Origin: a virus | Virus record (IMG/VR): IMGVR_UViG_3300045988_153208 | Length of the DNA stretch: 32,291 nt | Reading direction: 5' to 3' (one strand) | Shown here: piece by piece, positions 12,305 to 32,291 of the stretch | Numbering within the stretch: position 1 is the stretch's first letter | Layout: each line of letters starts with the position of its first letter | The notes under the pieces: generated by a model | Seen by the model: the letters and a program-made list of their open reading frames with translations, nothing else | The model's database searches: none | Told to the model about the DNA's origin: nothing | Position numbers and translations under genes: made by a program

Positions 12305-12305
12305 A

Positions 12306-12346: not shown

Positions 12347-12366
12347 TAAAGGAAGGAAATGGGCTT

Positions 12367-13088: not shown

Positions 13089-13090
13089 TT

Positions 13091-14292: not shown

Positions 14293-14333
14293 TAGAATGT
14301 CCGAAATTTCGATAACGCAGGAGAGTGATAAGT

Positions 14334-14576: not shown

Positions 14577-14586
14577 GAGGAAGATA

Positions 14587-16020
14587 ATGGCAACAATTAA
14601 GAGTCCCACTCTGTATGTTAAATGCTCTCAGTTTGCGTTTGATGAACTGTTTGAGAAGTTTAATAAGGCAGTCAAGCAAAAGCAATATAAGAAGTTTGAT
14701 TACGATGCTTGGTGTAAGATTCGTAAGACAATTAAGGAACATTGTTCCAAAGTTGATAAGAAAATCATTCCAACATCTATTCATTTTGACGTTGATACAA
14801 GAAAAGTATTCGTTGAAAATGTTCCAAACTTTTATTTTGATGATAAATCCTTCGGTCAGTTTCTTGTCAATGAGTTGACCCCTCAATTTATTATCAAAGT
14901 ATTGATGTGCGGCATTGAGGTAAAAGAAGCCACTGAGTATGTCATTTCTACGAAGCCTACCACAGCAGAATTGAATTGGAAGAGAGAAATGACTACTAAC
15001 GATAAATATTATTACAAGAATATTATTAAGCAGTATAAGGAAATCAATAACTATTACAACGATGTAAATGAAAAAATTTACACCGATGCTGATAAGTATT
15101 CATCTGCTTATGCGACCGCTCAGCCCTCTAATTTGAGTTGGGATGGCATTACAAGTAGCCCCATCGCGGATAATACTGCGACTAAGGCGACTACTAACAC
15201 CGCAAAGCCGGATGGTTTTACTATTGATTGGAATGCGCCTACCAGCACTACTAAGCCTATTAGTGCGGACGATTTGGGTTCTATCGTCAAACTTAATACC
15301 AGGGCTGATGTTATCAAGTTCGAGCCTTGCGCTGACCAGGTAAGCATTTGCTGTGATGACCTGTGTAAAAACTGTAAGAATTACGAAAAAAAGGATAATG
15401 AAGAAAAGGAGAATAAAATGAAGGGTTTCAATTTTGATTTCGGTAAGATTACCAACGATTCCATCCGTATGTCTATGTATGGTATGGCTGTTAAGAATGC
15501 TTCTGGTGTCTGGACTGCCTATGATAAGGGCACTGGCGACCTGATGGACGTCGACGTGTTCAATTTCGATGGTTCCAATTTCCTGTTCAAGATGCCTGTG
15601 GCTATCAAGGACATTGCGGTGGGCGATGTCGTTATCCACGCACGCAAGCCTATGTTCGTTATCAGCAAGACCGAGGCCGGCGATCTGATTGCTATTGACC
15701 CCGTGGCTGGTGAAAAGAAGACTATTATGCCTGTCCGCTCTCCCTTTGGGTTCAATTTCGCGACCAAGATTATCTCTCTGTTTGATAGTCTGATGCCCAC
15801 TACTGAGGCTCCTTCTGCGGATAACCCCTTTGGTTCTCTGTGGATGCTGATGCTGCTGGATGGCAAGTCCGATATGAAGGATATGCTGATTCCTATGATG
15901 CTGATGAACCAGGCCAATGGTTCTACCAATGCGTTTAACCCTATGATGCTGATGCTGATGAATGATGGCGATATGAAGGATATGGCTATCCCTCTGATGC
16001 TGATGAATCAGGTTAAGTAA
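14587..16020 (+). CDS. large hypothetical protein (477 aa) with Thr-rich linker and C-terminal Met-rich tandem repeat
   Basis: AGGAGG RBS. ORF track. C-terminal two-copy repeat ...LMLLDGKSDMKDMLIPMMLMNQ / LMLMNDGDMKDMAIPLMLMNQ. Confidence 0.65.
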   Translation: MATIKSPTLYVKCSQFAFDELFEKFNKAVKQKQYKKFDYDAWCKIRKTIKEHCSKVDKKIIPTSIHFDVDTRKVFVENVPNFYFDDKSFGQFLVNELTPQFIIKVLMCGIEVKEATEYVISTKPTTAELNWKREMTTNDKYYYKNIIKQYKEINNYYNDVNEKIYTDADKYSSAYATAQPSNLSWDGITSSPIADNTATKATTNTAKPDGFTIDWNAPTSTTKPISADDLGSIVKLNTRADVIKFEPCADQVSICCDDLCKNCKNYEKKDNEEKENKMKGFNFDFGKITNDSIRMSMYGMAVKNASGVWTAYDKGTGDLMDVDVFNFDGSNFLFKMPVAIKDIAVGDVVIHARKPMFVISKTEAGDLIAIDPVAGEKKTIMPVRSPFGFNFATKIISLFDSLMPTTEAPSADNPFGSLWMLMLLDGKSDMKDMLIPMMLMNQANGSTNAFNPMMLMLMNDGDMKDMAIPLMLMNQVK

Positions 16021-16057
16021 TATATCCCCCAGTTTGTTGATTTCATCCCCCAAAAAT

Positions 16058-16101
16058 AAGGGTCTTACCTCTCGGCGGTAAGACCCTTATTTGATTTTTT
16101 T
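16058..16101 (+). terminator. rho-independent terminator fused to promoter copy 8
   Basis: AAGGGTCTTACC / GGTAAGACCCTT with a 7-nt loop, then ATTTGATTTTTTT. Confidence 0.65.
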
Positions 16102-16130
16102 ATAAATTTATAATATAATATATATATAAG
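16091..16130 (+). promoter_or_regulatory. sigma70-type promoter cassette copy 8 (identical to copy 2)
   Basis: TTGATT 16091-16096, 17-nt spacer, TATAAT 16114-16119, ATATATATAAG. Confidence 0.65.
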
Positions 16131-16153
16131 ATGAAGAAAGGAAATGATACAAA

Positions 16154-17890: not shown

Positions 17891-17910
17891 CTGGTTCAAT
17901 ATAAAGTATT

Positions 17911-17951
17911 TTGATTTTTTTAAAAAAAAATTATATAATATATATGTAAGG
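17911..17951 (+). promoter_or_regulatory. sigma70-type promoter cassette copy 9
   Basis: TTGATT 17911-17916, 17-nt spacer, TATAAT 17934-17939, ATATATGTAAGG. Confidence 0.6.
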
Positions 17952-18001: not shown

Positions 18002-18412
18002 ATGAAGACTACCGATCGCACCACTAAGCGTGATTTTTATGAGGCTATTATCAAGGCTATGGAGACTGGCGAGACTGATGTCGAGCCCACCAAGATTATC
18101 GAGTTCTGTGAGAATGAGATTGCCCTGCTGGATAAGAAGGCCGACAAGGCTAAGGAGCGCGCCGCTGCTAAGAAGGCCGAGGCTGACGAACTGATGGATA
18201 AGGTGTATGCCGTCCTGAGCGATACCGAGTTTATGACTCGTAATGCTGTGATGGATGCCCTGGGTGATATGCCCGAGGACGTGACCATCAGCAAGGTCGG
18301 CGCAAGATTGACCAAGCTTGTTAATAGTCAGGCTGTGGAAAAGTCTGAGCTGACTGTTGCGAACGCTGAGGGTAAGAAATCCAAGTGTATGGGTTATAGA
18401 AAATTGGGTTAA
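18002..18412 (+). CDS. hypothetical Lys/Ala-rich protein (136 aa)
   Basis: AGAGGT RBS. ORF track. Higher GC than its neighbours. Confidence 0.6.
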   Translation: MKTTDRTTKRDFYEAIIKAMETGETDVEPTKIIEFCENEIALLDKKADKAKERAAAKKAEADELMDKVYAVLSDTEFMTRNAVMDALGDMPEDVTISKVGARLTKLVNSQAVEKSELTVANAEGKKSKCMGYRKLG

Positions 18413-18446
18413 TCCCATAACTTTGAGTGTCAAAATTGATTAATTA

Positions 18447-18489
18447 TTCCTCCTCATATTTCATAGTAAATATGAGGAGGAATTTTTTT
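18447..18489 (+). terminator. 15-bp hairpin + T7 (terminator that also sequesters the RBS of the downstream HEG)
   Basis: TTCCTCCTCATATTT / AAATATGAGGAGGAA with loop CATAGT. The right arm contains GAGGAGGAA, the SD for the ATG at 18490. Confidence 0.6.
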
Positions 18490-19284
18490 ATGATTGGTAT
18501 TTATAAAATTACAAATAAAATTAATGGCAAGAGTTATATTGGATAGAGTATTCGTATTGAACAACGTTGGCGAGACCATCAAATGAGAAGTCAAACTTCT
18601 TTAATTCATCGAGCCTTAGAAAAATATGGTGTCGAAAATTTTACATTCGAAGTATTAGAACAGTGTAATCAAGCAGATTTAGACGAACGAGAAAAATATT
18701 GGATTACCTATTATAATACATTTGAAGATGGCTATAATTTAACTCGCGGTGGAGGAGAAGGGTTTAAATATGACGTTGAAGAAGTTTATCAAACATTTCT
18801 CCAATTGTAGAATTTAGCACAAACCGCTCGTAAAATAGGTTGTCATGAAACTACTGTGAGAAATATTCTTCGAACTTATGATATTAATTTATCTATAAAG
18901 CAAGAAGATAAACCAGTAGAATAGATTGACCCTAAAACATTGTAGGTAATTCGAGAATTTAAAACGGTCCAAGACGCCGCTGATTCAGTTAATTTAAATC
19001 GTGCCTCTATTTCTAAGGTTATTAATGGACATGGAATGACGGCAGGAGGATATATTTGGCGCGCTAAGGGAGATACAGAAAAAATTCTTAAAGATTCAAA
19101 TAAACGTTGGAAATGCCCAGTAGAACAAATGGATTTACAAGGAAATATATTAGCAGAATATGAATCAGCAGCAGAAGCGGCTAGACAAATAGGACATCCT
19201 GGTCGAGGACGCCAAATTATATCTGTTTGTAGAGGGAATAATATGACCTCTTATGGTTATAGATGGCGTTATAAAAAGATTTAA
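18490..19284 (+). CDS. GIY-YIG homing endonuclease with C-terminal NUMOD/IENR-like DNA-binding repeats (264 aa; 4 in-frame TAG read as sense)
   Basis: MIGIYKITNKINGKSYIG-TAG-SIRIEQRWRDH matches GIY..YIGQS..R..H with the TAG at the conserved Gln. NLTRGGGEG. Helix-turn-helix-like repeats downstream. No TAA or TGA for 264 codons. Confidence 0.8.
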
Positions 19285-20346: not shown

Positions 20347-21387
20347 ATGCGAGTGATGAAAGACTCTGAGTATCTAGCATTTAAGCAGTTAGCTAAGCTT
20401 ACTCAAGATCAAATGATTAAGGCTATGCGTGCGGTGTTAGAGGCTCGTTATACCGATATTATCGCAACAAAGGAATATATTGTAGCCAAGGGAGATATTC
20501 CTATCGGATTGGTTGCCCATATGGATACAGTATTCCCGCTTCCTCCTACTGAAATTTATTATGATACTACACAGAATGTTGTGTGGAGTCCGCAGGGTCT
20601 TGGAGCTGATGACCGCGCAGGTGTATTCGCGATTCTTCAGATTTTGAAGACTACAAAATTGCGTCCGCATATTATTTTGACAACTGATGAAGAGAAGGGC
20701 GGATGGGGCGCATACGCCCTTGTTGAACAGCATCCAGATTTTCCGTTTGATGATTTGAAATATCTGATTCAGTTGGACCGCCAGGGCGCGAATGATTGTG
20801 TGTTTTATGATGGTATCAATGAAGATTTTATCCGTTATGTATCTTCTTTTGGTTTCGTAGAGCATATTGGTTCATTCAGCGATATTAGTATTCTGTGTCC
20901 ATTCTGGGATGTGTGCGGTGTCAATCTTTCTGTCGGTTATAAAAATGAGCATAGTCTCATTGAAACATTAAATATTAGCCATTTGTTCGATACCATCCAA
21001 AAGGTGAAGAGAATGTTAATGGTGAAGGAAATTCCTGACTTTGAGTGGAAGGAAAAATACTATCCTTATTTCACTAATGGGTATCCTCTGGATGATGACA
21101 TTGATGAGTATAGCGCGGCTTATGGTTATAATTGGGTAAATGATAAACGCTCTGTTGATGCTTATACAGTAATTTGTCATAATTGTAAGAAGCCATTTTA
21201 TAATTATGAAACATTCCCCACTAAGAAAATTGATGGTGGAACTATGTTCTTGTGCCCCGATTGTGTGGGCGACCATGCTAATTGGTGCGATTGTTGTGGC
21301 GAAGCATTTGAGCGTACACCGGAAAATGCCGGGGCTACTCTTTGCCCTGACTGTGCGAAAATTGAGAAGATTAAGGTTAAAGGTTAA
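20347..21387 (+). CDS. MH-clan (M20/M28/M42-like) metallopeptidase-like domain fused to C-terminal zinc-ribbon (346 aa)
   Basis: VAHMDTV (HxD), GLGADDRAG (GxxDD), TTDEEKGGWGA (EE) in canonical order. The last His motif is not evident. C-terminal CHNC...CPDC...CDCCG...CPDC. Confidence 0.6.
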   Translation: MRVMKDSEYLAFKQLAKLTQDQMIKAMRAVLEARYTDIIATKEYIVAKGDIPIGLVAHMDTVFPLPPTEIYYDTTQNVVWSPQGLGADDRAGVFAILQILKTTKLRPHIILTTDEEKGGWGAYALVEQHPDFPFDDLKYLIQLDRQGANDCVFYDGINEDFIRYVSSFGFVEHIGSFSDISILCPFWDVCGVNLSVGYKNEHSLIETLNISHLFDTIQKVKRMLMVKEIPDFEWKEKYYPYFTNGYPLDDDIDEYSAAYGYNWVNDKRSVDAYTVICHNCKKPFYNYETFPTKKIDGGTMFLCPDCVGDHANWCDCCGEAFERTPENAGATLCPDCAKIEKIKVKG

Positions 21388-22850
21388 TGAAGAGTTATAA
21401 TTTAGATGAACTAAAACAGCAAGTCAAACACGTATTAGAGTATAGTCAGGGTATTTATGATGTGAGTGAGGACGCTCTTGATAATATGATGAGTGAATGG
21501 GAGCGTAATAAAGCACGATTCATTAATGATTTTATGGGCGGCAAACTCATTGTGGAGTTGTCAGGCAAACGCTCCTTTCATTTGGGAGAAAAGGCAAAAC
21601 TCAAGAAATACAATGATTTTTTGGATTATGTTGTTCTGCGAATGAATAATTATGAGTTATGCCGATTTATTGAAGCGCAGGGCGAAGAAGGATTTTATGA
21701 GAACACCGTAAAAACTGGTTGGGACCATACTAAGAGTGATACATTTATTTCGCCGGGATCTAAACTAATACGAGCATTTAAATATTTCATTGAAGATAAG
21801 GATTTGCTGGAAACTGTTCAGAATGAGGCCAGTCGTATTATTCAAGGAGACTGTATCGAAGGCATTCTTTGTATATCAGTCCATCCTCTTGATTACCTCA
21901 GTTTAAGTGAAACTACATATAACTGGCGTTCTTGCCATGCTCTTGATGGCGAATATCGCGCTGGTGATTTGAGTTATTTGATGGATGGTAGCACATTTAT
22001 CTGTTATCTGAGAGGCGATGATAAACAAAACCTCCCTTCATTTCCCGATGATTTGCTCTGGAATAGTAAGAAGTGGCGTTGTTTGGGCTTCTTGGCTGAT
22101 GATGAAAATGGTATCATTATGGGCCGTCCTTATCCCTATGAGGCCGCAGATATTATTAATGAACTTCGTTGGGAAGTGTTTAATAGAGAATGGAATTTGG
22201 GCCTTGGTAGTTGGCGCGCAGACGCCATTCGTTCGGTTCAAGATCGCCTAACTAACTGGGATGAAGATTTGAATCGTACTTATATCCCTTGGAATGGCCG
22301 TCTTGTAGAACTTGATAAAACTGTTCATGATTGTCCAAGTCCTACTCATTATAATGATATTCTTTTATCCAGTTGTTATTTGCCTATTTATGCTCGTGGT
22401 AAAGGATATTTTGGCAAGAATGATTGGAAGAAGGTTCAGTATCATATTGGACACTCAGTAATGTGTATTCATTGTAATTCTGAGTATGTGTCTCCTGGTG
22501 ATGGCACGATGATGTGCCGTTCTTGTGAGATTAGATATGGCAATTCTGACAGTGATGATATTGTTTGTTGTGAGAATTGCGGTTGTCGTTTATGGTATGA
22601 AGACGCAATTGTTGTTGGAGACAATGGAAATTATCTTTGTGATGAATGTGCTAGTAGAATCACTAAAACTTGTAGAGATTGTGGTAATCCATATTACATT
22701 GATGATTTAACATATCATAAAGACGATGAAGATGAAAACGGCGGATATTATCTATGTGGATGGTGCGAGCAAGATAGGCAGGACACGGAAGAAATTGCAG
22801 AAGATGAATCTTCTACTACTACTATCAGTTTTGATGAGTTTGATCTGTAG
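21387..22850 (+). CDS. large hypothetical Cys-rich protein (487 aa; +32 aa if terminal TAG is read through to the TAA at 22949), paralog of 16154..17890
   Basis: TAATG coupling. ILCISVHPLDYLSLS, WNSKKWRC, YPY and CxxC blocks shared with the 578-aa protein. Ends in TAG. Confidence 0.7.
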   Translation: MKSYNLDELKQQVKHVLEYSQGIYDVSEDALDNMMSEWERNKARFINDFMGGKLIVELSGKRSFHLGEKAKLKKYNDFLDYVVLRMNNYELCRFIEAQGEEGFYENTVKTGWDHTKSDTFISPGSKLIRAFKYFIEDKDLLETVQNEASRIIQGDCIEGILCISVHPLDYLSLSETTYNWRSCHALDGEYRAGDLSYLMDGSTFICYLRGDDKQNLPSFPDDLLWNSKKWRCLGFLADDENGIIMGRPYPYEAADIINELRWEVFNREWNLGLGSWRADAIRSVQDRLTNWDEDLNRTYIPWNGRLVELDKTVHDCPSPTHYNDILLSSCYLPIYARGKGYFGKNDWKKVQYHIGHSVMCIHCNSEYVSPGDGTMMCRSCEIRYGNSDSDDIVCCENCGCRLWYEDAIVVGDNGNYLCDECASRITKTCRDCGNPYYIDDLTYHKDDEDENGGYYLCGWCEQDRQDTEEIAEDESSTTTISFDEFDL

Positions 22851-22968
22851 TCATTAAATACAAGACCTATATATTATATACACGATGAAAATGGCGAATG
22901 GATACCTATTACGCGAGTGCGTCAAATACCTCCGCCAGAAAGTGAATAATTATTTAAATATTTAAGGA

Positions 22969-23268
22969 GTGATTATTATAGCACGCGGAAGTATTGCTAA
23001 GGAAAATGTCGCTAAAATACTTGCCGAATCATTTGGTAAGGATTGGATTGGCGAGTCTGATAAGAAGTATTATGTTTGGGCTAATGATGGCGGTGAGCGC
23101 GTTCAAATCGCTATTAGTTTGACCTGTCCAAAGAATCCAGTAGGAGCCGCAATATCTCCTACAAGTAATGAAATCAATTTTGAGGCCGAGCCTGAGAGAC
23201 CTGTAATGGAGATTACTCCTGATGAACAGGAAATGATTGACAGACTTAAGGCTGAATTGAATCTTTAA
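22969..23268 (+). CDS. hypothetical protein (about 99 aa), start codon unresolved
   Basis: Protein-like open frame at about 40% GC. The only in-frame start is a GTG overlapping AAGGAG, and there is no ATG. Confidence 0.35.
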   Translation: MIIIARGSIAKENVAKILAESFGKDWIGESDKKYYVWANDGGERVQIAISLTCPKNPVGAAISPTSNEINFEAEPERPVMEITPDEQEMIDRLKAELNL

Positions 23269-23273
23269 TATAA

Positions 23274-23307
23274 TGAGATAAGTCATTTGACTTATCTCAT
23301 TTTTTTT
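23274..23307 (+). terminator. rho-independent terminator at the early/late boundary
   Basis: ATGAGATAAGT / ACTTATCTCAT with a 5-nt loop, then T8. Confidence 0.65.
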
Positions 23308-23315
23308 GTTATAAT
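23307..23315 (+). promoter_or_regulatory. possible extended -10 promoter (TGTTATAAT) for the AT-rich gene block
   Basis: TGnTATAAT immediately after the terminator T-tract. AAGGAG RBS and ATG at 23348. No -35. Confidence 0.3.
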
Positions 23316-23347
23316 TTAAATAGAATTAGATTATAAGGAGATTTAAA

Positions 23348-24049
23348 ATGTATAATCAAATTATTGAAGAATTAGAAGTTCTTAAATAGAATTTTGATAG
23401 TGAAGATATTGTATCATATCAATTACTTTTAATTAAAATTAAGAAAATTATTGATTTGATTAATGATAAACAACTTGAGGAAGCAGATAAAAGCAAATTA
23501 TCTAATTATATTCGAGATTATTTAGCAAGTTTGCATTTAAATAGAATTTTCACAATTTCTGATTTGAATGAATTATTTATTCCAGAAGTGAAAGATTTAG
23601 ATATTGGTAATAAAAATATTTATATTACAATTTTTAATTTATTCGTGGAAGAATTATCTGATGTAGATAATATTTTTTCTCAAAAACTTAAATACTGTAT
23701 TACAAATATGATTTCTAGAATTGCTGCTTCTGTAGATGAAACAATGGTTACAGAAGATAAAACTCAAGAAACTGTAATTAATGAACCTGTTCAAATTATT
23801 CCAACTATAAATACAGTAAATACTAATTCATTCGATTTGGATATTGATATTACTAATAAAAATTATTTGAAAGAATATATTATGCGTAAAAATTTAAAAC
23901 CTTACAGATGTGATATTTGTGGATTAAGTTCCTGGCAAAACAATCCTCTTATGCTATATTTATACAGTAAAAATCATATTTATTCAAATAAAAATTTAGA
24001 AAATTTGATGTTTTTATGCCCTAATTGCTATTCTCAGATTGGAGAGTAA
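23348..24049 (+). CDS. HNH-like endonuclease-domain protein (233 aa; 1 in-frame TAG)
   Basis: AAGGAG RBS. C-terminal CDICG...LYLYSKNHIYSNKNLENLMFLCPNCY resembles HNH (CxxC...H..N...CxxC) with Tyr where the last His normally sits. Confidence 0.55.
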
Positions 24050-24052
24050 TTT

Positions 24053-25240
24053 ATGTATTATAATTCTTATAATTAGAATTATTTTAATGAATTAAATAAA
24101 ATATTCAATAAATTTGATACTAATAATATTAATGATTATTATAATTTATTTAAATTAATATATGATATATATTTTAATGAAAATGTATTTATAATTGTTA
24201 ATGATGATATAAAATATCAATTAGAATCAAATTTAAAATTACTTATTAAAAAAAATAATTGGTTTATAGATTTTGAACAAACTGAAAAAAATATATTAAT
24301 TTCATTATTTATTATAATTACTTAGAAAATTAATTTTGGAAATTATTATCAAATTAATAATACATTAAAACAATAGATTGAATCATTATTATTAGATAAA
24401 AATTTAATTAATGAAAAAATGATTCATGATAGTAAAAATGTTTTTCATTTAGTTGATAGTTTTCCTGAAAATGAAAGTATGATTAAATTTTTTAAGCAAT
24501 ATAATATTGATATTATGAATTAGGAATTTTTAACTATTGGTAATACGAAAATTCCTAATTTTTATTTAAAACAAAAAAATAAAATGATAGATCATTATTA
24601 TGAATTTTGCCATTTATTATTTAAAATTTATAGTCCAATCTTATATTATGGTGTTTCATTTGAAGAAGGATATGAATATAAAATAACTAATAAAGATATT
24701 GTATTTGATTGTGGCGGAAATATGGGACTATTCGCGCTATACTGTGCTTCAAAAGGCGCGCAAGTATATTGTTTTGAGCCTATGTCTTATATTAGAGATT
24801 TTTTATATGAGAGTCAAAAATTATATCCTGATTTAATCCATATTATTCCTTGTGGAGTGTTTAATAGAAATTAGGAACAATATTTTTCTCAAACCTATAA
24901 TCCAGGAGCTGGATCGAATTCAATATTTCATGAATTAGAATATACATCTGATAGATTATATAAAGAAAAATGTAAGTTAATTACATTAGATTCATTTAGT
25001 TAGAATAATCATATTATTCCTACATTTATTAAAGCAGATATTGAAGGGTCTGAAGCACAAATGCTTGAAGGCGCTTCACAAATTTTACAAACATATAAAC
25101 CAACTATGAATATTTGTTTAAATCATCGGACGGAAGACCAATATAATATTCCTACCCTTATTTATAATATCAATTCTAATTATTCATTTTATTATTTTAT
25201 TGAAGGAGAAATACATTCTAAATTTGTATTGTGTAAATAA
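24053..25240 (+). CDS. FkbM-family SAM-dependent methyltransferase (395 aa; 6 in-frame TAG)
   Basis: VFDCGGNMGLFALYCASKGAQVYCFEP (motif I) and IKADIEGSEAQMLEGA (FkbM signature). No TAA or TGA for 396 codons at about 22% GC. Confidence 0.7.
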
Positions 25241-25242
25241 AT

Positions 25243-26196
25243 ATGCCAAATATTATTTTAACAGAATATTGTAATCTTCAATGCCCTTACTGTTTTGCTA
25301 GTAAAATGATTGAAGAAAAAACAGATGATACTAAAAATATTTCTCTTGAATAGTTAGATATGATTTTAAAATGGTTATTACCTTCAGCAACAAATTTAGA
25401 TCGGATTGGATTAATTGGAGGAGAACCTACTTTACATCCTTAGTTTAGAGAGATATTAGGTAGAATAAATTCATTTAATGAATTTACAAATACTTCTTCA
25501 ATAGTATTTACGAATGGAATTAATTTAAGTGAATTTTTATCTGCTATTGGACCAAATATGTCAATTTTAATTAATGTAAATAAATTGACTGGTAAATCAT
25601 TAAATAAACTTAATAGTGTATTAGATGAAATTAATTATTTAAGTTGGTTTAAAATTGATAAAGTTATTTTAGGATGTAATTTATATCAAAATGAAAATGA
25701 TTATTCTTATTTTTGGAATGTAGTTGATAAATATCCAGATATTTTAAGAATAAGAATGTCTATTACTGCACCCAATAGCAAAGAATTAAGAGTAAATAAA
25801 GAATTGTATTATACTATTATGAAACCTATATTATTACAATTTTTAGAAGAAACTAAAAAACGTGATATAAAAATTTCATATGATTGTAATTAGATTCCGT
25901 TATGTTTATTAAACAATGAAGAATAGAATTTAATAAATCAATTAGGGGAATTAAATAGTTTTTGTGAGCCCGTTATAGATATTACTCCAGATTTTAAAGC
26001 TACTTGCTGTTTTGGTGTTTATGATAATCCCATTCAATGTAATGATTTTAATAATATCGAAGAATTAACTAGATATTTTAAAAATCAAATAGTAATAAAA
26101 ACTATAAATAATAACACTTCCATGTGCAAAGATTGTAAAAAATTACAACTTGCTCAATGTCAAGGAGGATGTTTATCATTTTCTAATGTTGGGTAA
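25243..26196 (+). CDS. radical SAM enzyme with SPASM/twitch-like C-terminal Cys cluster (317 aa; 4 in-frame TAG)
   Basis: CNLQCPYC (CxxxCxxC) at residues 10-17. IGLIGGEPTLHP. C-terminal CCFGV...C...CKDCKKLQLAQCQGGC. Translationally coupled to the methyltransferase gene. Confidence 0.8.
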
Positions 26197-26254
26197 GTAT
26201 AAGTAATAAAGTTTTATAATTTTTTAATTCTAAAAAAGAAGGAGGAATTTTTTT

Positions 26255-26692
26255 ATGGCAAATATTACTTATGAATTAATTTTTAAATTTGCTTCTGGTA
26301 AAGAGGTAAATTTTATCGATGAAGAACATACATTTTCTATTGTAGAAGATTATCGTTCTCCAGTTCTTTTAACCCCTCAAATGTTTGGTATTGATGATTT
26401 ACGTGAGTATTATGCATTATTATTAATTGATGGTAAGCCTATGGAGGATTATGCATCAAATTATTGTAATTTTAAAAATTTTGGTAATTCTATTGTTGAT
26501 TTGCTTAATAATAAAGATACTATTTCAGAAATTATTTTAAAAGATATTGATACTAAAGGAGAATATTTTCATATAAATTCTGATCAATTAGTAGGTATTG
26601 AAGCTGGCGGAGGAACTGATAGAGGTTTTGATAATATAATGGTATACCGCATACAAATTTATTATAAAAAAGTTGGAAAAATAGGTGAGTAA
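26255..26692 (+). CDS. hypothetical protein (145 aa), no in-frame TAG
   Basis: Strong AAGGAGG RBS. ORF track. Confidence 0.6.
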   Translation: MANITYELIFKFASGKEVNFIDEEHTFSIVEDYRSPVLLTPQMFGIDDLREYYALLLIDGKPMEDYASNYCNFKNFGNSIVDLLNNKDTISEIILKDIDTKGEYFHINSDQLVGIEAGGGTDRGFDNIMVYRIQIYYKKVGKIGE

Positions 26693-26694
26693 TA

Positions 26695-27315
26695 ATGGGA
26701 GCTAATGCTACATCTGCGGGTAATTTAGTTAAACTATCTGATTTAGATGCGCTATATTTACGTTTATATAATTTAAAAGTAGCTCATATTAATGATGCAG
26801 ATTAGATTAATAAACCTGCTCTAACAGTTCCACCCAAAAGTAGTGGATTAATCCAAGGTAATAAAGTAGAAGTTTCAACCGCTAAAATTGCTACATTAAA
26901 ATCTGAACTAGCAAATTTAGCTCAATCAAAATGGTATTAGTCTAATACGGAGAATACTATAGTAACAATGACAGATTTTAGTACAAATATTAAAGTACCT
27001 AATGTAGGAGATTTATTAAAAAGCGTAGATTTTAATTTAATTGAAACTGCTATTACCTCTGCTGAAACTATTATACCTACTTATTCAAATAAATATAATG
27101 CTCGTTATAGTTTTCGTTATAGTGGTCATTATAGTTCTGATTATGGTACCTGTTATGATAGTCGTTATGGTACTTGTTATAGTAATTGTTATGGAGGCCG
27201 TTATAGTACTCGATATGGTACTTGTTATAGTTGTTATGGTTGTTATGGTTGTTATCGCAGATATAGTTCAAGGTATGGTAGATATGCTGCAAAAAATGTT
27301 CAAATTAGATGTTAA
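26695..27315 (+). CDS. Cys/Tyr/Gly/Ser/Arg-rich tandem-repeat peptide, candidate radical-SAM substrate (206 aa with 2 TAG from the 26695 ATG; 115 aa if it starts at the 26968 ATG)
   Basis: GGTGAG RBS and TAATAATG coupling at 26695. No TAA or TGA for 91 codons upstream of the track ORF 26968..27315. C-terminal 75 residues are [Y-x-x-X] repeats (YSFR, YSGH, YGTC x3, YSNC, YGGR, YSTR, YSC, YGC, YGC ...). Confidence 0.55.
27100..27290 (+). repeat. degenerate 9-12-nt tandem DNA repeats (CGTTATAGT / TGTTATGGT) encoding the YxxX peptide repeats
   Basis: Visible periodicity. All six reading frames are open across it, which gives spurious ORFs at 27041..27340 (+) and 27077..27292 (-). Confidence 0.7.
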
Positions 27316-27326
27316 AGGTGAATTAA

Positions 27327-28763
27327 ATGTTAATAAATAAATTAGATTTAATGGGATCCAGCAGCTGTGATTTAAAATGTTCTTATTGTTATATTACAAA
27401 AAATTGTTCATTTTATAATTATGATTCCGCCGTTCAAGAAGCTTGGGAAACTGGATCTTATTTAACTACTATTAAACAAGTTTTTTCGAAATTGGATGCA
27501 GACCCTACTCAAATAAAAGATTTAGAATTTTGGGGAGGAGAACCTACATTACATATTAAAGAAATGGCTTCTCAAGGAAAAGCATTAGGATAGTTATTTC
27601 CAGAAGTTGATTTTGTATTAATCCCAACTAATTGGTATTAGATTAATATGCAAGCCTTAGTAGATTTTATTTACAATTTTAATGATGGTATCTCTCCTCG
27701 TGGAAGTAAATCAAAAAATGTTAATTTTCATTTACAATTATCCATTGATGGGCCTCCTGGAGATTTTAATACTTATGGTCATAAAGTACCTTGGGATACT
27801 TATAAAAAACAATTTGATGATTTTTGTTTTTATTTAAAAGAAAAAGAAAATTCTGGAAGAGAATTAAAAAATATTAATATTATTTTCGCTATTAGTGGAA
27901 CCTCTTAGCAAAAATATATTTTAAAAAATTTAAATACTTTAGATAAAATAAAAGAATTTCAAGAATATATTAAAAAAGTTTGTAAATATGTAAATGATGA
28001 ACTAAAACAATTTAAAACTATAGATATATTTTTAGGAACTCCAATTTGGACTCCTACGGTAGCTATTCCAGATTCGACAACCACTGAAGAAGCATTAGAA
28101 TTAAATAAAATTGCACTAATGTTAGAATATAGCGATTATGTTAATGGAATAAAACCTTATAGTATTGATGCTAATGAGATTCAAGGGTTTCATGCAACTT
28201 ATGGAGAATTAAATGTATTGGATAGAAATCACGAATGTCCAGAGTCTAATGAACATGCAATTACATTAATGCCTGATGGAACTATTGCTGAATGTCCCTG
28301 TACCTTTTTATAGAATTTAGATTCTTATAAACAAGAATTATTAAATAATAAATAGTATTGGGAATATAAATCTTGTTTAATTAGAGATGGTAGTTTTTAT
28401 AATCCATTATTAGGTGATGAAAAACTTGATAATTACCATAGTTGGTATGTTTATGGTGGTGGATTTATTGGGACTAATTCTACTTATGCTAATTTAAATT
28501 TAAATATGGCTTATGAAATGGCTTTATCAAGATAGATTGATTATAACTATGCATTAAATCCAGAGTTATTAATGAGACATTATATGGCTATTTTTACAAC
28601 TGCTGAATGCTATCGTGAAAATGTTAATGTGACTCATAATCATTTTTTAACAGATCATAACATGTTTAGGCGTTGGTATAATGGTTATGCCGAATTAGGA
28701 TATAAAGATCATCGAGAGAAGATTAAAAAAATTATGGAAAATGTATTAAAAGGAGAAAATTAA
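27327..28763 (+). CDS. radical SAM enzyme with SPASM/twitch-like domain (478 aa; 6 in-frame TAG)
   Basis: AAGGTGA RBS. SSCDLKCSYC (CxxxCxxC). EFWGGEPTLH. C-terminal HECPESNEHAITLMPDGTIAECPC resembles the SPASM pdGdv..C element. Confidence 0.8.
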
Positions 28764-29947
28764 TGTTAGTACAAGAACAAGATAATCTCTTACTGCGAGA
28801 TATAATAGAACGTAATTATTATACATTTTTTCGTAAGGATGAGTATGTAAATAAAAATTTAAATATTTCTTTTTTCTATGATAATGATTATACTGATTAT
28901 AAAATTATTCCTAATTATGAGTCATTAGAAGATAAAAATGCTAACTTTGAATAGATTTATAATAATTTTAAATTATTTTTAAATTATTATAAAAGCCAAG
29001 GGTTTAATGCTAATATTAACATTCATGATGATAAATTTTTTGATAATTTTGAATTAAATTTATCACTATTTAATTTAATTTATGAACAAGAAATTAAATT
29101 TAAATCATTAAATTTTTATATTAGTTTATATAAATTTGAAGATTTAAATTCTCTATTTAATAAAATTAATATATTAAATAATAAATTTCATATAAATTTT
29201 GTTTTTAGCTTATTAATTTCTCAAATTGATTTATTTAAAAATCAAGATATTAATAATTTAAATTATAAATTAAATATTTTAATTCCTCCACAAATGCCGT
29301 CAGAAGAATTAATATTTAATTAGAAAATAATTGATAGTAATAATTTTAATATTGATTAGTATATTGAAGTTGATTCTGATTTATGGACTATCGAAGCGAT
29401 AGAGGATTATTTAAAATATTTAAATTATTTAATGGATAATTTAAATGATTTAAATGAAATTTTCTTTACAAATTTACCTATTGCTTTACAAGATTAGCAT
29501 GTATTAGATAATACAAATTGTAAAAAAAATTGTGATTTCCAAAATTCATTAAATGTTTTGATAGTAGATTTAAGCATTAATTTATGCCACAAATTTCAAT
29601 TTAAAGATTTAATTATTGGTAATTATATATATAATGAAGAAAATAATAAATTAGAAATTGTAAGTAAAAATCTTCCAACGATAATATTAGGGGCGCATTT
29701 AAAACGTTCTAGCACTCCTCATTGTGAAACTTGTTCTTATGTTAATATATGTCAAGGTTTTTGCTTTATGCGCTCTTATTTAAAATGCTATAATCCTATT
29801 ATACCTATTCAGGAAAGTTGTTTATTAAAAAAAATAAAATATAATTTTATTTTTAATAAATTAAAAAATCAAAATTTTAATATTGATAATAATTTAATTA
29901 TTTCAGATTTATATAAGCAATATTTACATCAAATCTTAAAACATTAG
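28763..29947 (+). CDS. SPASM-motif protein lacking the radical-SAM CxxxCxxC core (394 aa; 4 in-frame TAG)
   Basis: TAATG coupling. AAGGAG RBS. C-terminal HCETCSYVNICQGFC is an exact CX2CX5CX3C, with more Cys upstream. No N-terminal CxxxCxxC. Confidence 0.65.
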
Positions 29948-29961
29948 GGAGGGGAAAAATA

Positions 29962-30231
29962 ATGTATTTACCAATACATAATAATTATTATTATTTATTA
30001 ATTAATACTCCTCTTACTTATCCAATTTGTTTAGATGAAGAAGAAGCTCTAGCTTATTTAAAATATATTAATCGAGATGACTATCAATATAATAATATTG
30101 CTAATTATGATGTTCTTGATTATGAGAAAATAATATATATTGAAGTTTCTTTCCCAAATAATGAAGAAATTCAAAAATTACTTACTAAAATTAAAGATAA
30201 TATTGCAACCGGTTATGCATTAAGGAATTAG
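29962..30231 (+). CDS. hypothetical protein (89 aa), ends in TAG
   Basis: AGGGAGGGG RBS. If the TAG is sense the frame runs to a TGA at 30336, overlapping the next gene. Confidence 0.5.
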   Translation: MYLPIHNNYYYLLINTPLTYPICLDEEEALAYLKYINRDDYQYNNIANYDVLDYEKIIYIEVSFPNNEEIQKLLTKIKDNIATGYALRN

Positions 30232-30280
30232 TATAAAAATCGTCTTTTTGATTTTAGCAATTATAAAGAGGAGCGGCTTT

Positions 30281-31684
30281 ATGAACCTTCAAGCGCCAAA
30301 TATTGTGGATTGCCAAGAGATAACTTGTGATATGATAGAAGATTATCTTGCTAAACGATATCAATAGCAAGTATTAAAAACAAAATTTCCTTTTGATGTA
30401 GAAATACAATTAATTTTAGCTAGAAATTGTAATTTAAACTGTACTAATTGTTAGGCTGGTTGTAATATTAATGATAAAAATGAATTAATGACATTAGATG
30501 AAATTAAATACGCTATCCCTAAATTAAAAAAATTTTTTCAAGATAAAATTTTATAGATAGTTTTATTTGGTGGAGAACCATTATTAAATCCAGAGTATGA
30601 AGAAATTTGCTATTATGTACGAAGTGAATTACCAGAAGCCTCAATAGATATTTATACCAATGGTATTCTTAAATAGAATTGGACTGAAAAAGACTATGAA
30701 TTTGCAGTAAAAAATGAAGTACATTTTACACAAAGTTTATATCCATTAGGAGAATCGTATTTTAATAATACTTAGAAACAAGAAGAATTAATGACTAAAT
30801 TAGGCATTAAACATGAAATATGTGGAAATCGTCCTTTTTTTATTAAAGGAGGTTATAATAAAACAGGAAGTTCAAATCCGAATCGTTTTTTTTAGTGTTG
30901 TCATTCAATGTTTCCTCCTCATTTTTATTTATTTAAAAAATAGCTATGGCGATGCGCACCAACATTAAGTTGGGATAAAATTAATATTCCTTGTTTCCCA
31001 GAAGATTATTTAAATATTGATAATTTGACAGAAGAACGTTTTATCGAATATTGTAGCAAACCATTAAAAATATGTAAATATTGTGGAAACTCAGATGAAT
31101 TAGGATTTGGAAGTGATGAAATAATAACTTGGCATCATTAGAAAGATTTGCCCAGTAATTATGATTAGACTTTATATGATTTATATATAAATAATTATAA
31201 ATTATATTATAAGTATGTCCATGATTGCAAAACTATTCTTCCTTGTTTTGATAATTAGTATTTTATAGATAATATTAAAGCAGAGGATTTGCCTTCTCAT
31301 CCAAGTATAATGTTTTTAAAAAAATTTAAAACAGGATTAGGAGATGTATGTATCCCATTTGATAAAGAATCTTGTTAGGATATAAAAAATTTATTAAAAT
31401 TTAAAAAATTAATTTTAAATTAGAATAATTATTTAAATATAAATTTTTATTTTATTTCATTAGATGGAAATAAGCCAGCGAAATCTATTATTTATCGAAT
31501 GTTTCCTCCCGCTTCTTGCGATTTAGAAGGGAATATTTATTTATTAGAATCAGACAATCCCAATAATTTTTATCAAATATTTTTACAAAATAGTTATTTA
31601 AAAAAGAAAATCTGTATTTTAAACTATAAAGATTTATTAGATAAGAATTATTTATCAAATAAATTTAATGAAATGGATGGTTAA
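30281..31684 (+). CDS. radical SAM enzyme (467 aa; 12 in-frame TAG) with Cys-rich C-terminal half
   Basis: AAGAGGAG RBS. NCNLNCTNC (CxxxCxxC). VLFGGEPLLNP. Later CCHSMFPPHFY..., CSKPLKICKYCG, MFPPASCDLEGNIY. No TAA or TGA for 468 codons. Confidence 0.75.
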
Positions 31685-31687
31685 TAA

Positions 31688-32291
31688 ATGAGACAATTTG
31701 AATTTCCTTATAATTTTGATAAAAAATTGTTATATATTTTACAAACATTTACATCTGGTAATGATATTAATTGTATTTATTTACCTCCATATCTTAAAGA
31801 TTATTAGACAATTTTACGAACTGCTGAATAGGCAGAACAATTAGATAAAATGTCTCGACAAGAATACGAAGATCATCTAAATTTTATTAATTCATTATTC
31901 CCAAATAAAATTTAGATTTTATTATAGAAAACTAATATTTTTTTAAACGCTGAACTCGTAAAATATTATATTAATTTAGGTGTTAAAAATTTTTGTGTAG
32001 CATCTATTGAACAAGCTAAAATTATTAAATAGATTGATTCAACAATTAATATTGTTGGATCAATTGCTATGCAAATTACATAGGAAAAAATAATAAATAA
32101 TTTACAAGAATTTTCTCTTTATTTTGATAGTTTTGTTTTACCATTTTCTGCATCTCGTCAATTATCAGAATTAAAAAAATTACCAAAAAATTTTAATTAT
32201 ATTTTATTAATCAATTCTTTGTGTAGTATTAAATGTAATGGAAAAAATCATTGGAATTTTGATTATAAAGAAGATAAAGAGATATTTTGCC
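31688..32291 (+). CDS. hypothetical protein, 5' partial view (201 codons or more, runs off the window; 6 in-frame TAG)
   Basis: ATG 4 nt after the upstream stop. The frame stays open to the window edge apart from TAG. C-terminal-ward Cys pairs. No confident family call. Confidence 0.5.

What the first reader, a model, noticed from the sequence alone, without database searches (positions are those of the whole stretch)
22850..23350. Abrupt boundary between two coding regimes at about 23.3 kb
Upstream of a strong terminator at 23274 the genome is 40-50% GC, uses the standard code with no in-frame TAG, and is driven by repeated sigma70 cassettes. Downstream the GC drops to about 22-25%, the promoter cassette disappears, and TAG becomes a frequent sense codon. 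This pattern matches the early-standard / late-recoded arrangement described for stop-codon-recoded phages. However, the GC step of about 20 points is unusually large. It could instead mark a mosaic junction where a module was acquired from a different AT-rich lineage. The GIY-YIG gene in the mid-GC part also uses TAG as sense, which ties the two parts to the same translation regime.
Basis: partly seen in the sequence, partly recalled or inferred. Interest (0 to 1): 0.55.

Follow-up and report, generated by a model that had tools for sequence, protein, structure and literature searches.

The report
AT-rich amber-recoded island in gut phage
The sharp composition break at 23.3 kb is real: it is the left edge of a 12-kb, very AT-rich, swappable accessory-gene island in a large human-gut phage that reads the stop codon TAG as glutamine, not the border between an early and a late half of the genome.

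Summary
GC drops from 0.40 to 0.23 within about 100 bp at 23,254-23,316. The drop sits at a strong terminator (23272-23301) that overlaps a sigma70-like promoter (23287-23315). Downstream, all ten ORFs but one carry in-frame TAG, 43 in total. The junction is not an artefact: at least four other assemblies from other samples span it at 98.7-99.9% identity. TAG encodes Gln, and close relatives carry a tRNA with anticodon CUA in a tRNA array of at least 28 genes. The "early half / late half" reading is only partly right. The AT-rich block is a ~11.8-kb island that ends before tRNA-Trp, after which mid-GC, TAG-free genes resume. A relative with 94-97% identical flanks carries a different AT-rich cassette at the same site. 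Homology breaks right after the -10 box. Between strains the island is 3-10 times less diverged than its flanks. It encodes three radical SAM enzymes, a SPASM-domain protein, a methyltransferase, glycosyltransferases and a protein with a (Tyr-x-x-x)n tail. It has no structural or lysis genes. Across about 85 genes of the lineage, TAG density falls steadily as GC rises (Spearman rho -0.64). The GIY-YIG gene is a separate, polymorphic AT-rich insertion.

The parts
21387..22850 (+). Mid-GC gene (phrog_18912 family, paralog of 16154-17890). It ends at TAG 22848, which is probably a true stop.
   Evidence: PHROG hit. Divergence from relatives is biased to third codon positions up to 22847. In the 33-codon read-through to TAA 22947-22949 the bias is absent: changes fall 4,0,1 by codon position.
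22975..23268 (+). Last mid-GC gene before the junction. It is a conserved small protein with a probable non-canonical ATA/ATT start.
   Evidence: tblastn finds homologs in L003, L004 and L007, in the same place after the phrog_18912 gene. Divergence is of coding type: 10 of 13 changes fall at third positions. No in-frame TAG.
23272..23309 (+). Intrinsic terminator: 13-bp stem, 4-nt loop, T8 tract.
   Evidence: -17.5 kcal/mol, z = -4.6. Identical in L001 and one mismatch in L002.
23287..23315 (+). Sigma70-like promoter TTGACT-17-TATAAT with an upstream TG. The -35 element lies inside the terminator hairpin. It heads the island.
   Evidence: Matches 11 of 12 consensus positions. It is conserved in L001 and L002, and homology with L001 ends 1-2 nt after the -10 box.
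23316..32291 (+). AT-rich, TAG(Gln)-recoded accessory island. The window holds its first 9 kb; it runs on to about 35,090 of the same contig.
   Evidence: GC 0.23 and GC3 0.09-0.14, with 43 in-frame TAGs. L134 is the same contig continued, and there the island ends before tRNA-Trp. The dinucleotide signature distance to the left part is 126-164, against 30-82 within the left part.
23348..24049 (+). HNH-type endonuclease-like protein (1 TAG).
   Evidence: phrog_10822 and phrog_14736, E about 1e-15. PADLOC homing endonuclease model.
24053..25240 (+). FkbM-family methyltransferase (6 TAG).
   Evidence: PF05050, above its gathering score. phrog_8156.
25243..26196 (+). Radical SAM enzyme with a Cys-rich C-terminal region (4 TAG).
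   Evidence: PF04055 and PF13353. NCBIfam gives only generic rSAM/SPASM maturase-type hits, all below their cut-offs.
26255..26692 (+). 145-aa protein of unknown function. It is the only island ORF without TAG.
   Evidence: The exact sequence is present in 28 blocks of the public assembly collection.
26695..27315 (+). Candidate substrate protein: a ~130-aa helical N-terminal domain followed by a C-terminal (Tyr-x-x-x)n repeat rich in Cys, Ser, Gly and Arg (2 TAG).
   Evidence: In alignment A4 Tyr is invariant every fourth residue, and repeat number varies between strains. The AlphaFold model has three helices and a disordered tail, mean pLDDT 54.
27327..28763 (+). Radical SAM-like enzyme (CxxxCxxC at residues 14-21; 6 TAG).
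   Evidence: phrog_1802. Weak PF04055 and PF13353 hits. 70% identical to the L012 ortholog.
28763..29962 (+). Protein with a SPASM-type C-terminal domain (5 TAG).
   Evidence: TIGR04085 SPASM domain, E = 5.8e-5, just below its cut-off.
29962..30330 (+). 122-aa protein of unknown function (1 TAG).
   Evidence: Its ortholog in L012 is 58% identical.
30281..31684 (+). Radical SAM enzyme (12 TAG).
   Evidence: PF04055. The homologs found are all metagenomic; no close relative in 185,579 bacterial and archaeal species genomes or in GenBank phages.
31688..32291 (+). 5' part of a gene that continues beyond the window. It is called as 512 aa on the same contig (6 TAG so far) and is followed by GT8-type glycosyltransferase genes.
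   Evidence: PF01501 weak on the gene downstream.
18404..19261 (+). Separate AT-rich insertion carrying a GIY-YIG/NUMOD homing endonuclease (ORF 18472/18490-19284, 4 TAG). A hairpin at 18446-18483 overlaps its ribosome-binding site.
   Evidence: PF01541, PF22083 and phrog_314 match across the TAGs. The segment is absent from L001, L002, L133 and L135-L137 and present only in the window's own contig. GC3 is 0.19.
16054..16130 (+). One example of the repeated terminator-promoter cassette of the mid-GC region. Other copies start at 85, 2653, 5802, 6841, 9722, 12306, 13545 and 17911.
   Evidence: The same cassette type precedes tRNA genes downstream of the island.

Best explanation
The window is the first 32.3 kb of a 186-kb contig of a human-gut phage that reads TAG as glutamine (genetic code 15).

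What the boundary is. The break at 23.3 kb is the left border of an accessory island of about 11.8 kb. The island lies between the last gene of a conserved mid-GC block and the first tRNA (Trp) of the phage's tRNA array. The conserved left flank ends with a terminator that overlaps a host-type promoter, and the variable DNA begins 1-2 nt after the -10 box. The right flank is another AT-rich promoter cassette with a hairpin, in front of tRNA-Trp.

How it changes. Alternative cassettes, all AT-rich and all using TAG as a sense codon, occupy this slot in closely related strains. I infer that they are exchanged by recombination in the conserved regulatory flanks.

How it is expressed. The island looks like one operon. 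Its translation needs the phage's own amber-suppressor tRNA(CUA). That tRNA lies roughly 23 kb beyond the junction in relatives, inside the same tRNA array. The array also supplies U34 tRNAs for the A-ending codons that the island prefers.

How it fits the genome. The phage family keeps two classes of genes. One class is mid-GC and TAG-free (or TAG-terminated) and can be translated by the naive host. The other class is AT-rich and carries TAG(Gln); it includes this island, homing endonucleases, other radical SAM mini-clusters, a PhoH-like gene and an endolysin-like gene.

What it does. The island most likely matures the adjacent (Tyr-x-x-x)n protein through radical SAM/SPASM cross-linking, methylation and perhaps glycosylation.

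Shown: the junction, the code, the tRNA in relatives, cassette replacement, the gene families and the GC-TAG gradient.
Inferred: the recombination mechanism, operon structure and timing, the role of the tRNA array, and the chemistry.
For: - Reality of the junction. The window is identical to ena:ERZ27261223:k119_14822 positions 1-32291. Four other assemblies from other samples span the junction at 98.7-99.9% identity, as does IMG/VR contig 141926.
- Code. Stop-free coverage goes from 43% to about 100% with TAG as sense. In ortholog alignments, TAG pairs with CAA/CAG-encoded Gln in 15 of 67 non-TAG cases, against a Gln background of 2.8%; 10 further positions are TAG opposite TAG. A tRNA(CUA) is present in all five related contigs examined, and those arrays contain no tRNA-Gln.
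- Island limits. In L134 the GC returns to mid values and an intact tRNA-Trp follows. L009, L016, L023 and L039 show mid-GC TAG-free genes after it.
- Replacement. L001 aligns only up to window position 23328 and then carries 9.2 kb of different AT-rich genes (YcaO, rSAMs, a Ser/Gly-rich protein), ending at the same tRNA-Trp.
- Exchange. Island identity is 97-99.9% where flank identity is 91.6-98.7% in the same strain pairs.
- Hotspot. L007 has an rSAM plus Cys-rich cassette after the homologous small gene, while L003 and L004 have none.
- Two gene classes. TAG per 1000 codons is 19, 15, 8.5, 4.1, 1.5, 1.3 and 0.25 across rising GC bins, Spearman rho -0.64, p = 5e-11. Gln codons are CAA 59 / CAG 88 / TAG about 0 in the left part and 74 / 2 / 37 in the island.
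- Long-term stability. The syntenic island in L012 is 33-70% identical at protein level with GC 0.12-0.28, while backbone genes of the same phage are 49-64% identical.
- Function. rSAM, SPASM, FkbM and GT8 domains and the (YxxX)n repeat protein.
Against: - The suppressor tRNA was seen only in relatives, including the contig that shares the island at 97-98% identity. It was not seen on the window's own contig, which I could read only to 36.7 kb.
- I did not reach structural genes. Whether mid-GC virion genes carry TAG is therefore unknown, and the two-class picture rests on about 85 genes from roughly half a genome.
- The lower divergence of the island could partly reflect fewer neutral options at sites fixed as A or T.
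- Similar deep divergence of island and backbone in L012 fits vertical inheritance as well as exchange.
- Depletion of TAG as a stop codon in mid-GC genes is not statistically convincing: 0-2 of 36, P = 0.02-0.25.
- No radical SAM protein reaches a curated family cut-off. The AlphaFold model of the repeat protein is poor. The chemistry is a guess.
- There are no expression data of any kind.
Confidence: 0.7

Rival explanations
1. Early-standard / late-recoded bipartition. On this view 23.3 kb separates the early genes, translated with the host code, from the late, recoded part of the genome.
For: The left part has almost no in-frame TAG and carries repeated host-type promoters. The lineage has a suppressor tRNA. 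An endolysin-like gene and a PhoH-like gene further along carry TAG, as described for recoded phages (bioRxiv 10.1101/2021.08.26.457843).
Against: The AT-rich block is about 11.8 kb long and is followed by tRNAs and at least 25 kb of mostly mid-GC, TAG-free genes: DUF2828, SHMT, RNA ligase, kinase/phosphatase and flotillin-like. It holds no structural or lysis genes. It is headed by a sigma70-type promoter. It is replaced by another cassette in a 94-97% identical strain.
Confidence: 0.12
2. Recent horizontal acquisition of a foreign module from an AT-rich donor, bacterial or viral, that has not yet ameliorated.
For: GC3 is 0.11 against about 0.45. The dinucleotide signature distance between the compartments is 2-2.5 times the within-compartment distance. 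Amino-acid usage is shifted towards Asn, Ile, Leu and Lys. Cassettes are swapped between strains, and the island is younger than its flanks.
Against: In-frame TAG(Gln) rules out a standard-code bacterial donor. No close homolog was found in 185,579 species genomes or in GenBank phages. The same island type sits in a family member whose backbone genes are 49-64% identical at protein level, at even lower GC, so AT-richness has persisted over long co-residence. Many other AT-rich TAG-bearing genes are scattered through the same genome.
Confidence: 0.15
3. Assembly chimera joining two unrelated genomes at a low-complexity AT-rich stretch.
For: The change is abrupt and falls at a T-rich, promoter-like sequence. 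One IMG/VR contig does break inside the island, at duplicated GT8 genes.
Against: The junction is spanned by at least four other assemblies from other samples and assemblers, plus IMG/VR contigs, at 96-99.9% identity. The same left flank joins a different island in L001, and the same right flank (tRNA-Trp) follows both islands.
Confidence: 0.01

Closest known systems
Stop-codon-recoded (genetic code 15, TAG to Gln) gut phages: crAss-like, Lak, Agate/Garnet-type clades and phAss-1 (Borges et al., bioRxiv 10.1101/2021.08.26.457843; Peters et al., PMC9523058; PMC10607447)
   Same: In-frame TAG aligns with Gln. A phage-encoded tRNA(CUA) sits in a tRNA array. TAG-free genes sit alongside TAG-bearing genes, and a lysis-type gene is recoded. 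The habitat is the human gut. A homing endonuclease is kept silent by recoded codons, as Borges et al. noted for an intron endonuclease.
   Different: TAG density here tracks a very large within-genome GC difference (GC3 0.1 against 0.45). The densest recoding is in a swappable radical SAM accessory island and in homing endonucleases, not in a contiguous late structural block. phAss-1 shares only a GIY-YIG match with this window, and the 100 kb of it examined has no 20%-GC island. I found no description of such a compositional split in the papers read.
PeSL composite terminator/promoter motifs and hyperplastic regions of T4-like phages (Arbiol et al. 2010, PMC2839356; Comeau et al. 2014, PMC4122927)
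   Same: Short terminator-plus-early-promoter motifs are repeated along the genome. Replacement of unrelated accessory genes has its breakpoints at these motifs.
   Different: This is a different phage group, whose only GenBank protein matches are weak ones to Enterococcus phages of about 140 kb. The motif at the junction differs in sequence from the nine-copy cassette. The swapped cassette is 9-12 kb, compositionally distinct and recoded.
Radical SAM/SPASM peptide-maturation clusters with repeat-motif precursors: triceptide/cyclophane (YhhB, XyeB type), Cys-every-fifth CefB, His-Xaa-Ser HxsB/C
   Same: Several rSAM/SPASM enzymes sit next to a protein with a strictly periodic aromatic/Cys repeat. 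Weak NCBIfam hits go to exactly these maturase families.
   Different: No hit reaches a curated cut-off. The 'precursor' is 200 aa with a folded helical N-domain and 16-30 repeats. No protease or exporter is present. Methyltransferase and GT8 genes are attached. The host genome is a phage.
Free-standing homing endonuclease genes (seg/mob type) in large lytic phages, including ones that target tRNA gene regions
   Same: The GIY-YIG insertion at 18.4-19.3 kb is present or absent between strains. HNH or Zn-finger genes are inserted in tRNA-Trp (L009) and tRNA-Asn (L134). They are AT-rich relative to the backbone.
   Different: These genes also carry in-frame TAG, so they can be expressed only in a code-15 setting. 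The comparison with T4 SegB rests on my own knowledge and was not tested here.

Membership tests
Code-15 (TAG to Gln) recoded phage | Reading TAG as sense restores long ORFs whose homology continues across the TAGs | tested here: met
   Coverage rises from 43% to about 100%. Pfam and PHROG domains span TAGs in the GIY-YIG, FkbM and rSAM genes. Full-length orthologs exist in L012.
Code-15 (TAG to Gln) recoded phage | TAG positions correspond to Gln in homologs | tested here: met
   15 of 67 non-TAG partners are CAA/CAG-encoded Gln, against a 2.8% Gln background; 10 more positions are TAG opposite TAG. In the more distant homologs of alignment A1 the same columns hold Gln, Glu, Lys or Ser.
Code-15 (TAG to Gln) recoded phage | Phage-encoded suppressor tRNA with anticodon CUA | tested here: inconclusive
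   Present in all five related contigs examined (L015-L019), including the contig whose island is 97-98% identical to the window's. None is in the window. The window's own contig could be read only to 36.7 kb.
Code-15 (TAG to Gln) recoded phage | Recoded codons concentrated in late, structural or lysis genes and absent from early genes | tested here: inconclusive
   Early-type genes are TAG-free, and an endolysin-like gene carries 3 TAG. The densest TAG use, however, is in accessory rSAM genes. Structural genes were not reached.
Code-15 (TAG to Gln) recoded phage | Gln incorporation at TAG shown at protein level | not testable with these tools
   Needs metaproteomics or an isolate.
PeSL-type mobile regulatory cassettes (T4-like phages) | Composite stem-loop terminator plus early promoter motif | tested here: met
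   23272-23315. Nine further cassettes of one conserved type.
PeSL-type mobile regulatory cassettes (T4-like phages) | Indel or replacement breakpoints coincide with the motifs | tested here: met
   The left breakpoint is 1-2 nt after the -10 box (A2). On the right, homology resumes at the promoter cassette in front of tRNA-Trp.
PeSL-type mobile regulatory cassettes (T4-like phages) | The same motif sequence on both sides, serving as the substrate for homologous recombination | tested here: not met
   The left and right flanks share only 9-nt low-complexity matches. The junction motif differs from the TTGATT cassette. Exchange would have to use the flanks shared between genomes, not repeats within one genome.
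PeSL-type mobile regulatory cassettes (T4-like phages) | The host genome is a T4-like myovirus | tested here: not met
   The only GenBank phage protein matches are weak ones to Enterococcus phages of about 140 kb. No DNA match to any GenBank phage.
rSAM/SPASM RiPP-type maturation cluster | Radical SAM CxxxCxxC core with an auxiliary-cluster (SPASM/twitch) domain | tested here: met
   PF04055 and PF13353 exceed their gathering scores for 25243-26196 and 30281-31684. The SPASM domain model TIGR04085 hits 28763-29962 just below its cut-off.
rSAM/SPASM RiPP-type maturation cluster | Adjacent precursor with a recognisable modified motif | tested here: inconclusive
   The (YxxX)n repeat protein lies two genes downstream of the first rSAM. 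At 206 aa with a folded N-domain it is not a typical precursor.
rSAM/SPASM RiPP-type maturation cluster | A match to a curated maturase family above its cut-off | tested here: not met
   Every NCBIfam hit scores at most 50 bits, against cut-offs of 131-650.
Integrative genomic island at a tRNA gene | An integrase, and direct repeats that duplicate the tRNA 3' end | tested here: not met
   No integrase family was found among the island proteins searched. No direct repeat longer than 9 nt occurs at the borders.

The most novel reading that the evidence does not exclude
The phage family maintains two stable genomic compartments that differ in both base composition and effective genetic code. One is host-like and TAG-free. 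The other is AT-rich (GC3 about 0.1) and amber-recoded. The second compartment depends on the phage's own tRNA array, including tRNA-Sup(CUA). It holds a horizontally circulating pool of cassettes that can be expressed only inside code-15 phages: radical SAM clusters that mature (Tyr-x-x-x)n or Cys-rich proteins, and homing endonucleases. Recoding would then act as an expression lock and gene-flow barrier for a phage-specific mobilome, and not only as a timer for lysis.
Probability: 0.3. Interest if true: 0.75.

Novelty: new variant of a known kind. Interest (0 to 1): 0.58.

Why it matters
Amber-recoded gut phages are known. Their recoding is usually described as a split between early and late genes within a compositionally uniform genome.

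Here TAG(Gln) use follows a within-genome GC gradient of unusual size. The extreme end of that gradient is a cassette that is exchanged between strains at a fixed, promoter-flanked slot next to the tRNA array that carries the suppressor.

If this holds up, three things follow:
- It gives a concrete, testable case for recoding as a control on accessory and mobile genes, and as a barrier to gene flow.
- It warns annotators that one phage genome can need two gene-calling models.
- It points to an undescribed group of phage-borne radical SAM clusters with periodic Tyr/Cys repeat substrates, common in human gut metagenomes.

Tried and rejected
- A megablast of the left 23 kb and a tblastn of an island rSAM against GenBank phages found nothing.
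- Rfam and ARAGORN found nothing in the window.
- The exact-protein look-up of the 21387 gene failed, probably because the collection calls the gene in code 15 as a 520-aa read-through product.
- phAss-1, a named code-15 phage of similar size, is not a close relative. Only a GIY-YIG match was found, and the 100 kb examined has no 20%-GC island.
- Walking the relatives' contigs to the virion genes used every collection scan. It covered about 20 kb upstream and about 55 kb downstream of the junction without reaching capsid or tail genes.
- I tested whether mid-GC genes avoid TAG as a terminator. The result was not significant: TAG is rare in all frames there, and 0-2 of 36 stops gives P = 0.02-0.25.
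- A search of 185,579 bacterial and archaeal species genomes for the island rSAM family gave only generic rSAM hits of 39% identity or less over short stretches.
- PADLOC and NCBIfam gave only N-terminal rSAM-core matches, viperin- or MoaA-like and below cut-offs. I reject a defence-system or viperin assignment.
- The AlphaFold model of the repeat protein was too weak (mean pLDDT 54) to justify a fold search.
- Classical integration is rejected. There is no integrase and no att-like repeat.
- The look-up meant to place the suppressor tRNA on the window's own contig returned a different contig.


Full report
**1. The observation**

The composition break is real and sharp.
- 1-kb windows average GC 0.400 (sd 0.028) to the left and 0.232 (sd 0.031) to the right.
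- A likelihood change-point falls at 23,254.
- 100-bp windows drop from 0.43 to 0.16 between 23,100 and 23,400.
- The break coincides with a 13-bp hairpin plus T8 at 23272-23301 (-17.5 kcal/mol, z = -4.6).
- Overlapping it is a good sigma70-type promoter, TTGACT-17-TATAAT with an upstream TG, at 23287-23315.

All genes lie on the + strand. Reading TAG as sense raises stop-free coverage of the right part from 43% to about 100% and hardly changes the left part. The ten ORFs right of the break hold 43 in-frame TAGs, and only 26255-26692 has none.

The left part carries nine copies of one conserved terminator-promoter cassette and two consensus promoters. The island has none inside it.

The difference reaches every level of composition:
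- GC3 is 0.30-0.60 on the left and 0.09-0.14 in the island.
- TTA makes up 11% of Leu codons on the left and 79% in the island.
- CTG goes from 29% of Leu codons to 0.
- Asn goes from 5.7% to 10.4% of residues, and Ala from 5.8% to 3.0%.
- The GC-normalised dinucleotide signature distance between the two parts is 126-164, against 30-82 within the left part.

**2. Not an artefact**

The window is identical to positions 1-32291 of ena:ERZ27261223:k119_14822, a 186,118-bp contig; locus L134 is its continuation to 36.7 kb. Four further assemblies from other samples span the junction at 98.7-99.9% identity: two ENA scaffolds of 118 and 198 kb, and two Logan contigs. So does IMG/VR contig 141926, at 96%. 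Contigs of related phages are common in human-gut metagenome assemblies.

**3. The code**

I aligned island proteins with their orthologs in an independent 44-kb contig (L012, 33-70% identity). TAG pairs with CAA/CAG-encoded Gln in 15 of 67 cases, against a Gln background of 2.8%. Ten further positions are TAG opposite TAG.

Five related contigs carry a tRNA with anticodon CUA. One of them is the contig that shares this island at 97-98% identity. The tRNA sits in an array of at least 28 tRNAs that has no tRNA-Gln. In those relatives the array starts right after the island, and the suppressor lies roughly 23 kb past the junction. The lineage therefore uses code 15.

In the island TAG supplies one third of Gln codons (CAA 74, CAG 2, TAG 37). 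In the left part it supplies essentially none (CAA 59, CAG 88).

TAG at 22848 probably still acts as a stop. The 33 codons after it lack the third-position divergence that the gene itself shows.

**4. It is an island, not a genome half**

On the window's own contig the AT-rich block ends at about 35.09 kb. An AT-rich promoter cassette, a hairpin and an intact tRNA-Trp follow. After them come a mid-GC gene and the tRNA array.

Beyond that, relatives show at least 25 kb of mostly mid-GC, TAG-free genes: DUF2828, a vault-like protein, phosphatases, SHMT, RNA ligase, a kinase and a flotillin-like protein. These are interrupted by small AT-rich TAG-bearing genes or mini-clusters.

Contig 160359 (L001) has flanks 94-97% identical to the window, but it aligns only to position 23328. 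It then carries 9.2 kb of different AT-rich, TAG-bearing genes: YcaO, several rSAMs, U32-like proteins and a Ser/Gly-rich protein. That cassette ends at the same tRNA-Trp. Homology breaks 1-2 nt after the -10 box.

Within strain pairs that share the island type, the island is 97-99.9% identical where the adjacent flanks are 91.6-98.7%.

More distant relatives keep the gene order peptidase, phrog_18912 gene, small gene. After it they have either no island (L003, L004) or another rSAM plus Cys-rich cassette (L007).

No integrase and no att-like repeats are present.

**5. Gene content**

In order along the island:
- an HNH-type protein
- an FkbM methyltransferase
- a radical SAM enzyme
- a 145-aa protein of unknown function
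- a 206-aa repeat protein (described below)
- a radical SAM-like 478-aa protein
- a SPASM-domain protein
- a 122-aa protein
- a radical SAM enzyme with 12 TAGs
- a U32-like gene that runs off the window
- then, on the same contig, GT8-type glycosyltransferases

The 206-aa protein has a helical N-terminal domain and a tail in which Tyr recurs at every fourth residue. The tail has 16-30 repeats rich in Cys, Ser, Gly and Arg, and the repeat number varies between strains.

No protein matches a curated maturase family above its cut-off. The rSAM family has no close relative in 185,579 bacterial and archaeal species genomes or in GenBank phages.

The arrangement resembles rSAM/SPASM clusters that cross-link repeat-motif precursors. 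That is an inference from gene neighbourhood and repeat structure, not a demonstrated function.

**6. The wider pattern**

I tiled about 85 + strand genes of the lineage, roughly 20,700 codons. TAG per 1000 codons falls steadily as gene GC rises from below 0.20 to above 0.45: 19.3, 15.4, 8.5, 4.1, 1.5, 1.3, 0.25 (Spearman rho -0.64, p = 5e-11). The few TAGs in mid-GC ORFs are mostly in doubtful ORFs or near gene ends. An endolysin-like gene and a PhoH-like gene, both at GC 0.31-0.35, carry three TAGs each.

The GIY-YIG gene at 18.4-19.3 kb belongs to the AT-rich class (GC3 0.19, 4 TAG). It is an insertion present only in the window's own contig.

L012 is a family member whose backbone proteins are 49-64% identical to this lineage. 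It carries the syntenic island at even lower GC, 0.12-0.28. AT-richness is therefore long-lived and not a fresh import signature.

**7. How it most likely works**

- Shown: the promoter/terminator architecture, the dependence of the island ORFs on TAG read-through, the suppressor tRNA in the lineage, and cassette replacement with breakpoints at the regulatory flanks.
- Inferred: the island is one operon driven by the junction promoter, and its proteins appear only once tRNA(CUA) has accumulated.
- Consistent but weak: the array's U34 tRNAs (Leu-UAA, Ile-UAU, Arg-UCU, Lys-UUU, Gly-UCC and others) serve the A-ending codons that the island prefers. The fraction of codons with a Watson-Crick-cognate phage tRNA is 0.48 in the island and 0.41 in the left part.
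- Inferred: cassettes are exchanged between co-infecting relatives by homologous recombination in the conserved flanks, as proposed for PeSL motifs in T4-like phages (PMC2839356, PMC4122927).
- Open: why the two compositional classes persist. The candidates are selection on early genes to match host tRNAs and the host code, a shared AT-rich gene pool among code-15 phages, and relaxed constraint under AT-biased mutation.

**8. Comparison with what is known**

This is a code-15 gut phage of the kind surveyed by Borges et al. and validated by Peters et al.. It is not close to phAss-1.

What I did not find described in the papers I read is the coupling of recoding to a GC3 difference of 0.1 against 0.45 inside one genome. 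Nor did I find its concentration in a swappable rSAM island next to the suppressor-bearing tRNA array.

I rate it a new variant of a known kind.

**9. Limits**

- Structural genes were not reached.
- The suppressor was not read on the window's own contig.
- There are no expression or protein data.
- The host is unknown.

Noticed in passing
window 22958-22985: The conserved small gene 22975-23268 has no ATG, GTG or TTG where its homologs start (M-A-x-K/G-x-I-A-K). The window reads ATA-GCA-CGC-GGA, 8 nt after an AAGGAG ribosome-binding site. This suggests an ATA or ATT start codon.
   Followed up: partly
window 22848-22949: TAG at 22848 is conserved in relatives and is followed by a 33-codon open extension to TAA. 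The extension shows no coding-type divergence. The gene may therefore end at TAG early in infection and be extended by read-through once the suppressor is present. Public gene calls list it as 520 aa.
   Followed up: partly
window 18446-18492: A 16-bp hairpin followed by a T-run overlaps the GAGGAGG ribosome-binding site and the likely true start (ATG 18490, MIGIYKITN...) of the GIY-YIG gene. This resembles the RBS-sequestering hairpins that restrict homing endonuclease translation in T4; that comparison is from my own knowledge.
   Followed up: no
L134 19799-20290 (same contig, about 36.05-36.55 kb): tRNA-Asn(GTT) is split near its anticodon loop by an insert of about 430 nt that encodes an HNH-like ORF. 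The 99%-identical strain L133 has the tRNA intact.
   Followed up: partly
L009 2732-3480: In another strain a Zn-finger/HTH gene at the right end of the island replaces the 5' half of tRNA-Trp. Only the 3' 45 nt of the tRNA remain.
   Followed up: partly
window 26695-27315; alignment A4: The family has a strictly periodic Tyr-x-x-x repeat tail whose length varies between near-identical strains. The L012 ortholog uses YGTQYPS[RCK] octads instead.
   Followed up: partly
L023 13251-15276; L012 14209-16145; L007 12106-14095; L009 12292-13578: Further small AT-rich, TAG-bearing units are scattered through the same phage family. Three of the four are an rSAM/SPASM gene paired with a Cys/Gly/Ser-rich repeat protein; at L009 only the rSAM gene was seen.
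   Followed up: no
window 16154-17890 and 21387-22847: These two genes are paralogs (phrog_18912). They share an HPLDY..S....W.SC motif and have C-terminal regions rich in CxxC pairs. Homologs occur in Enterococcus phages of about 140 kb.
   Followed up: partly
window 85-17950 (nine sites): A highly conserved cassette of about 60 nt, TTGATTTTT(N)TATAAT-ATATATATAAGRTRAAGRAAGG, often lies directly after a terminator hairpin and precedes many early-type genes. The same cassette precedes tRNA genes beyond the island.
   Followed up: partly
L009 2-2589 / L134 15434-18831: Two GT8-like paralogs (L009 2-733 and 1855-2589) at the island's right end are 88% identical at DNA level, with a third GT8-like gene between them. 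IMG/VR contig 120995 starts exactly there, which suggests an assembly break at the repeat.
   Followed up: partly
L054 1-7000 (upstream of the window in relatives): This region has GC 0.45-0.51 and few clean ORFs on either strand, unlike the densely coding window. Two minus-strand AT-rich TAG-bearing genes lie at 8240-9641.
   Followed up: no
window, + strand, 1-23270: The trinucleotide TAG is half as frequent as its reverse complement CTA on the coding strand in all frames (149 against 303). This is a strand-specific depletion beyond in-frame avoidance.
   Followed up: no
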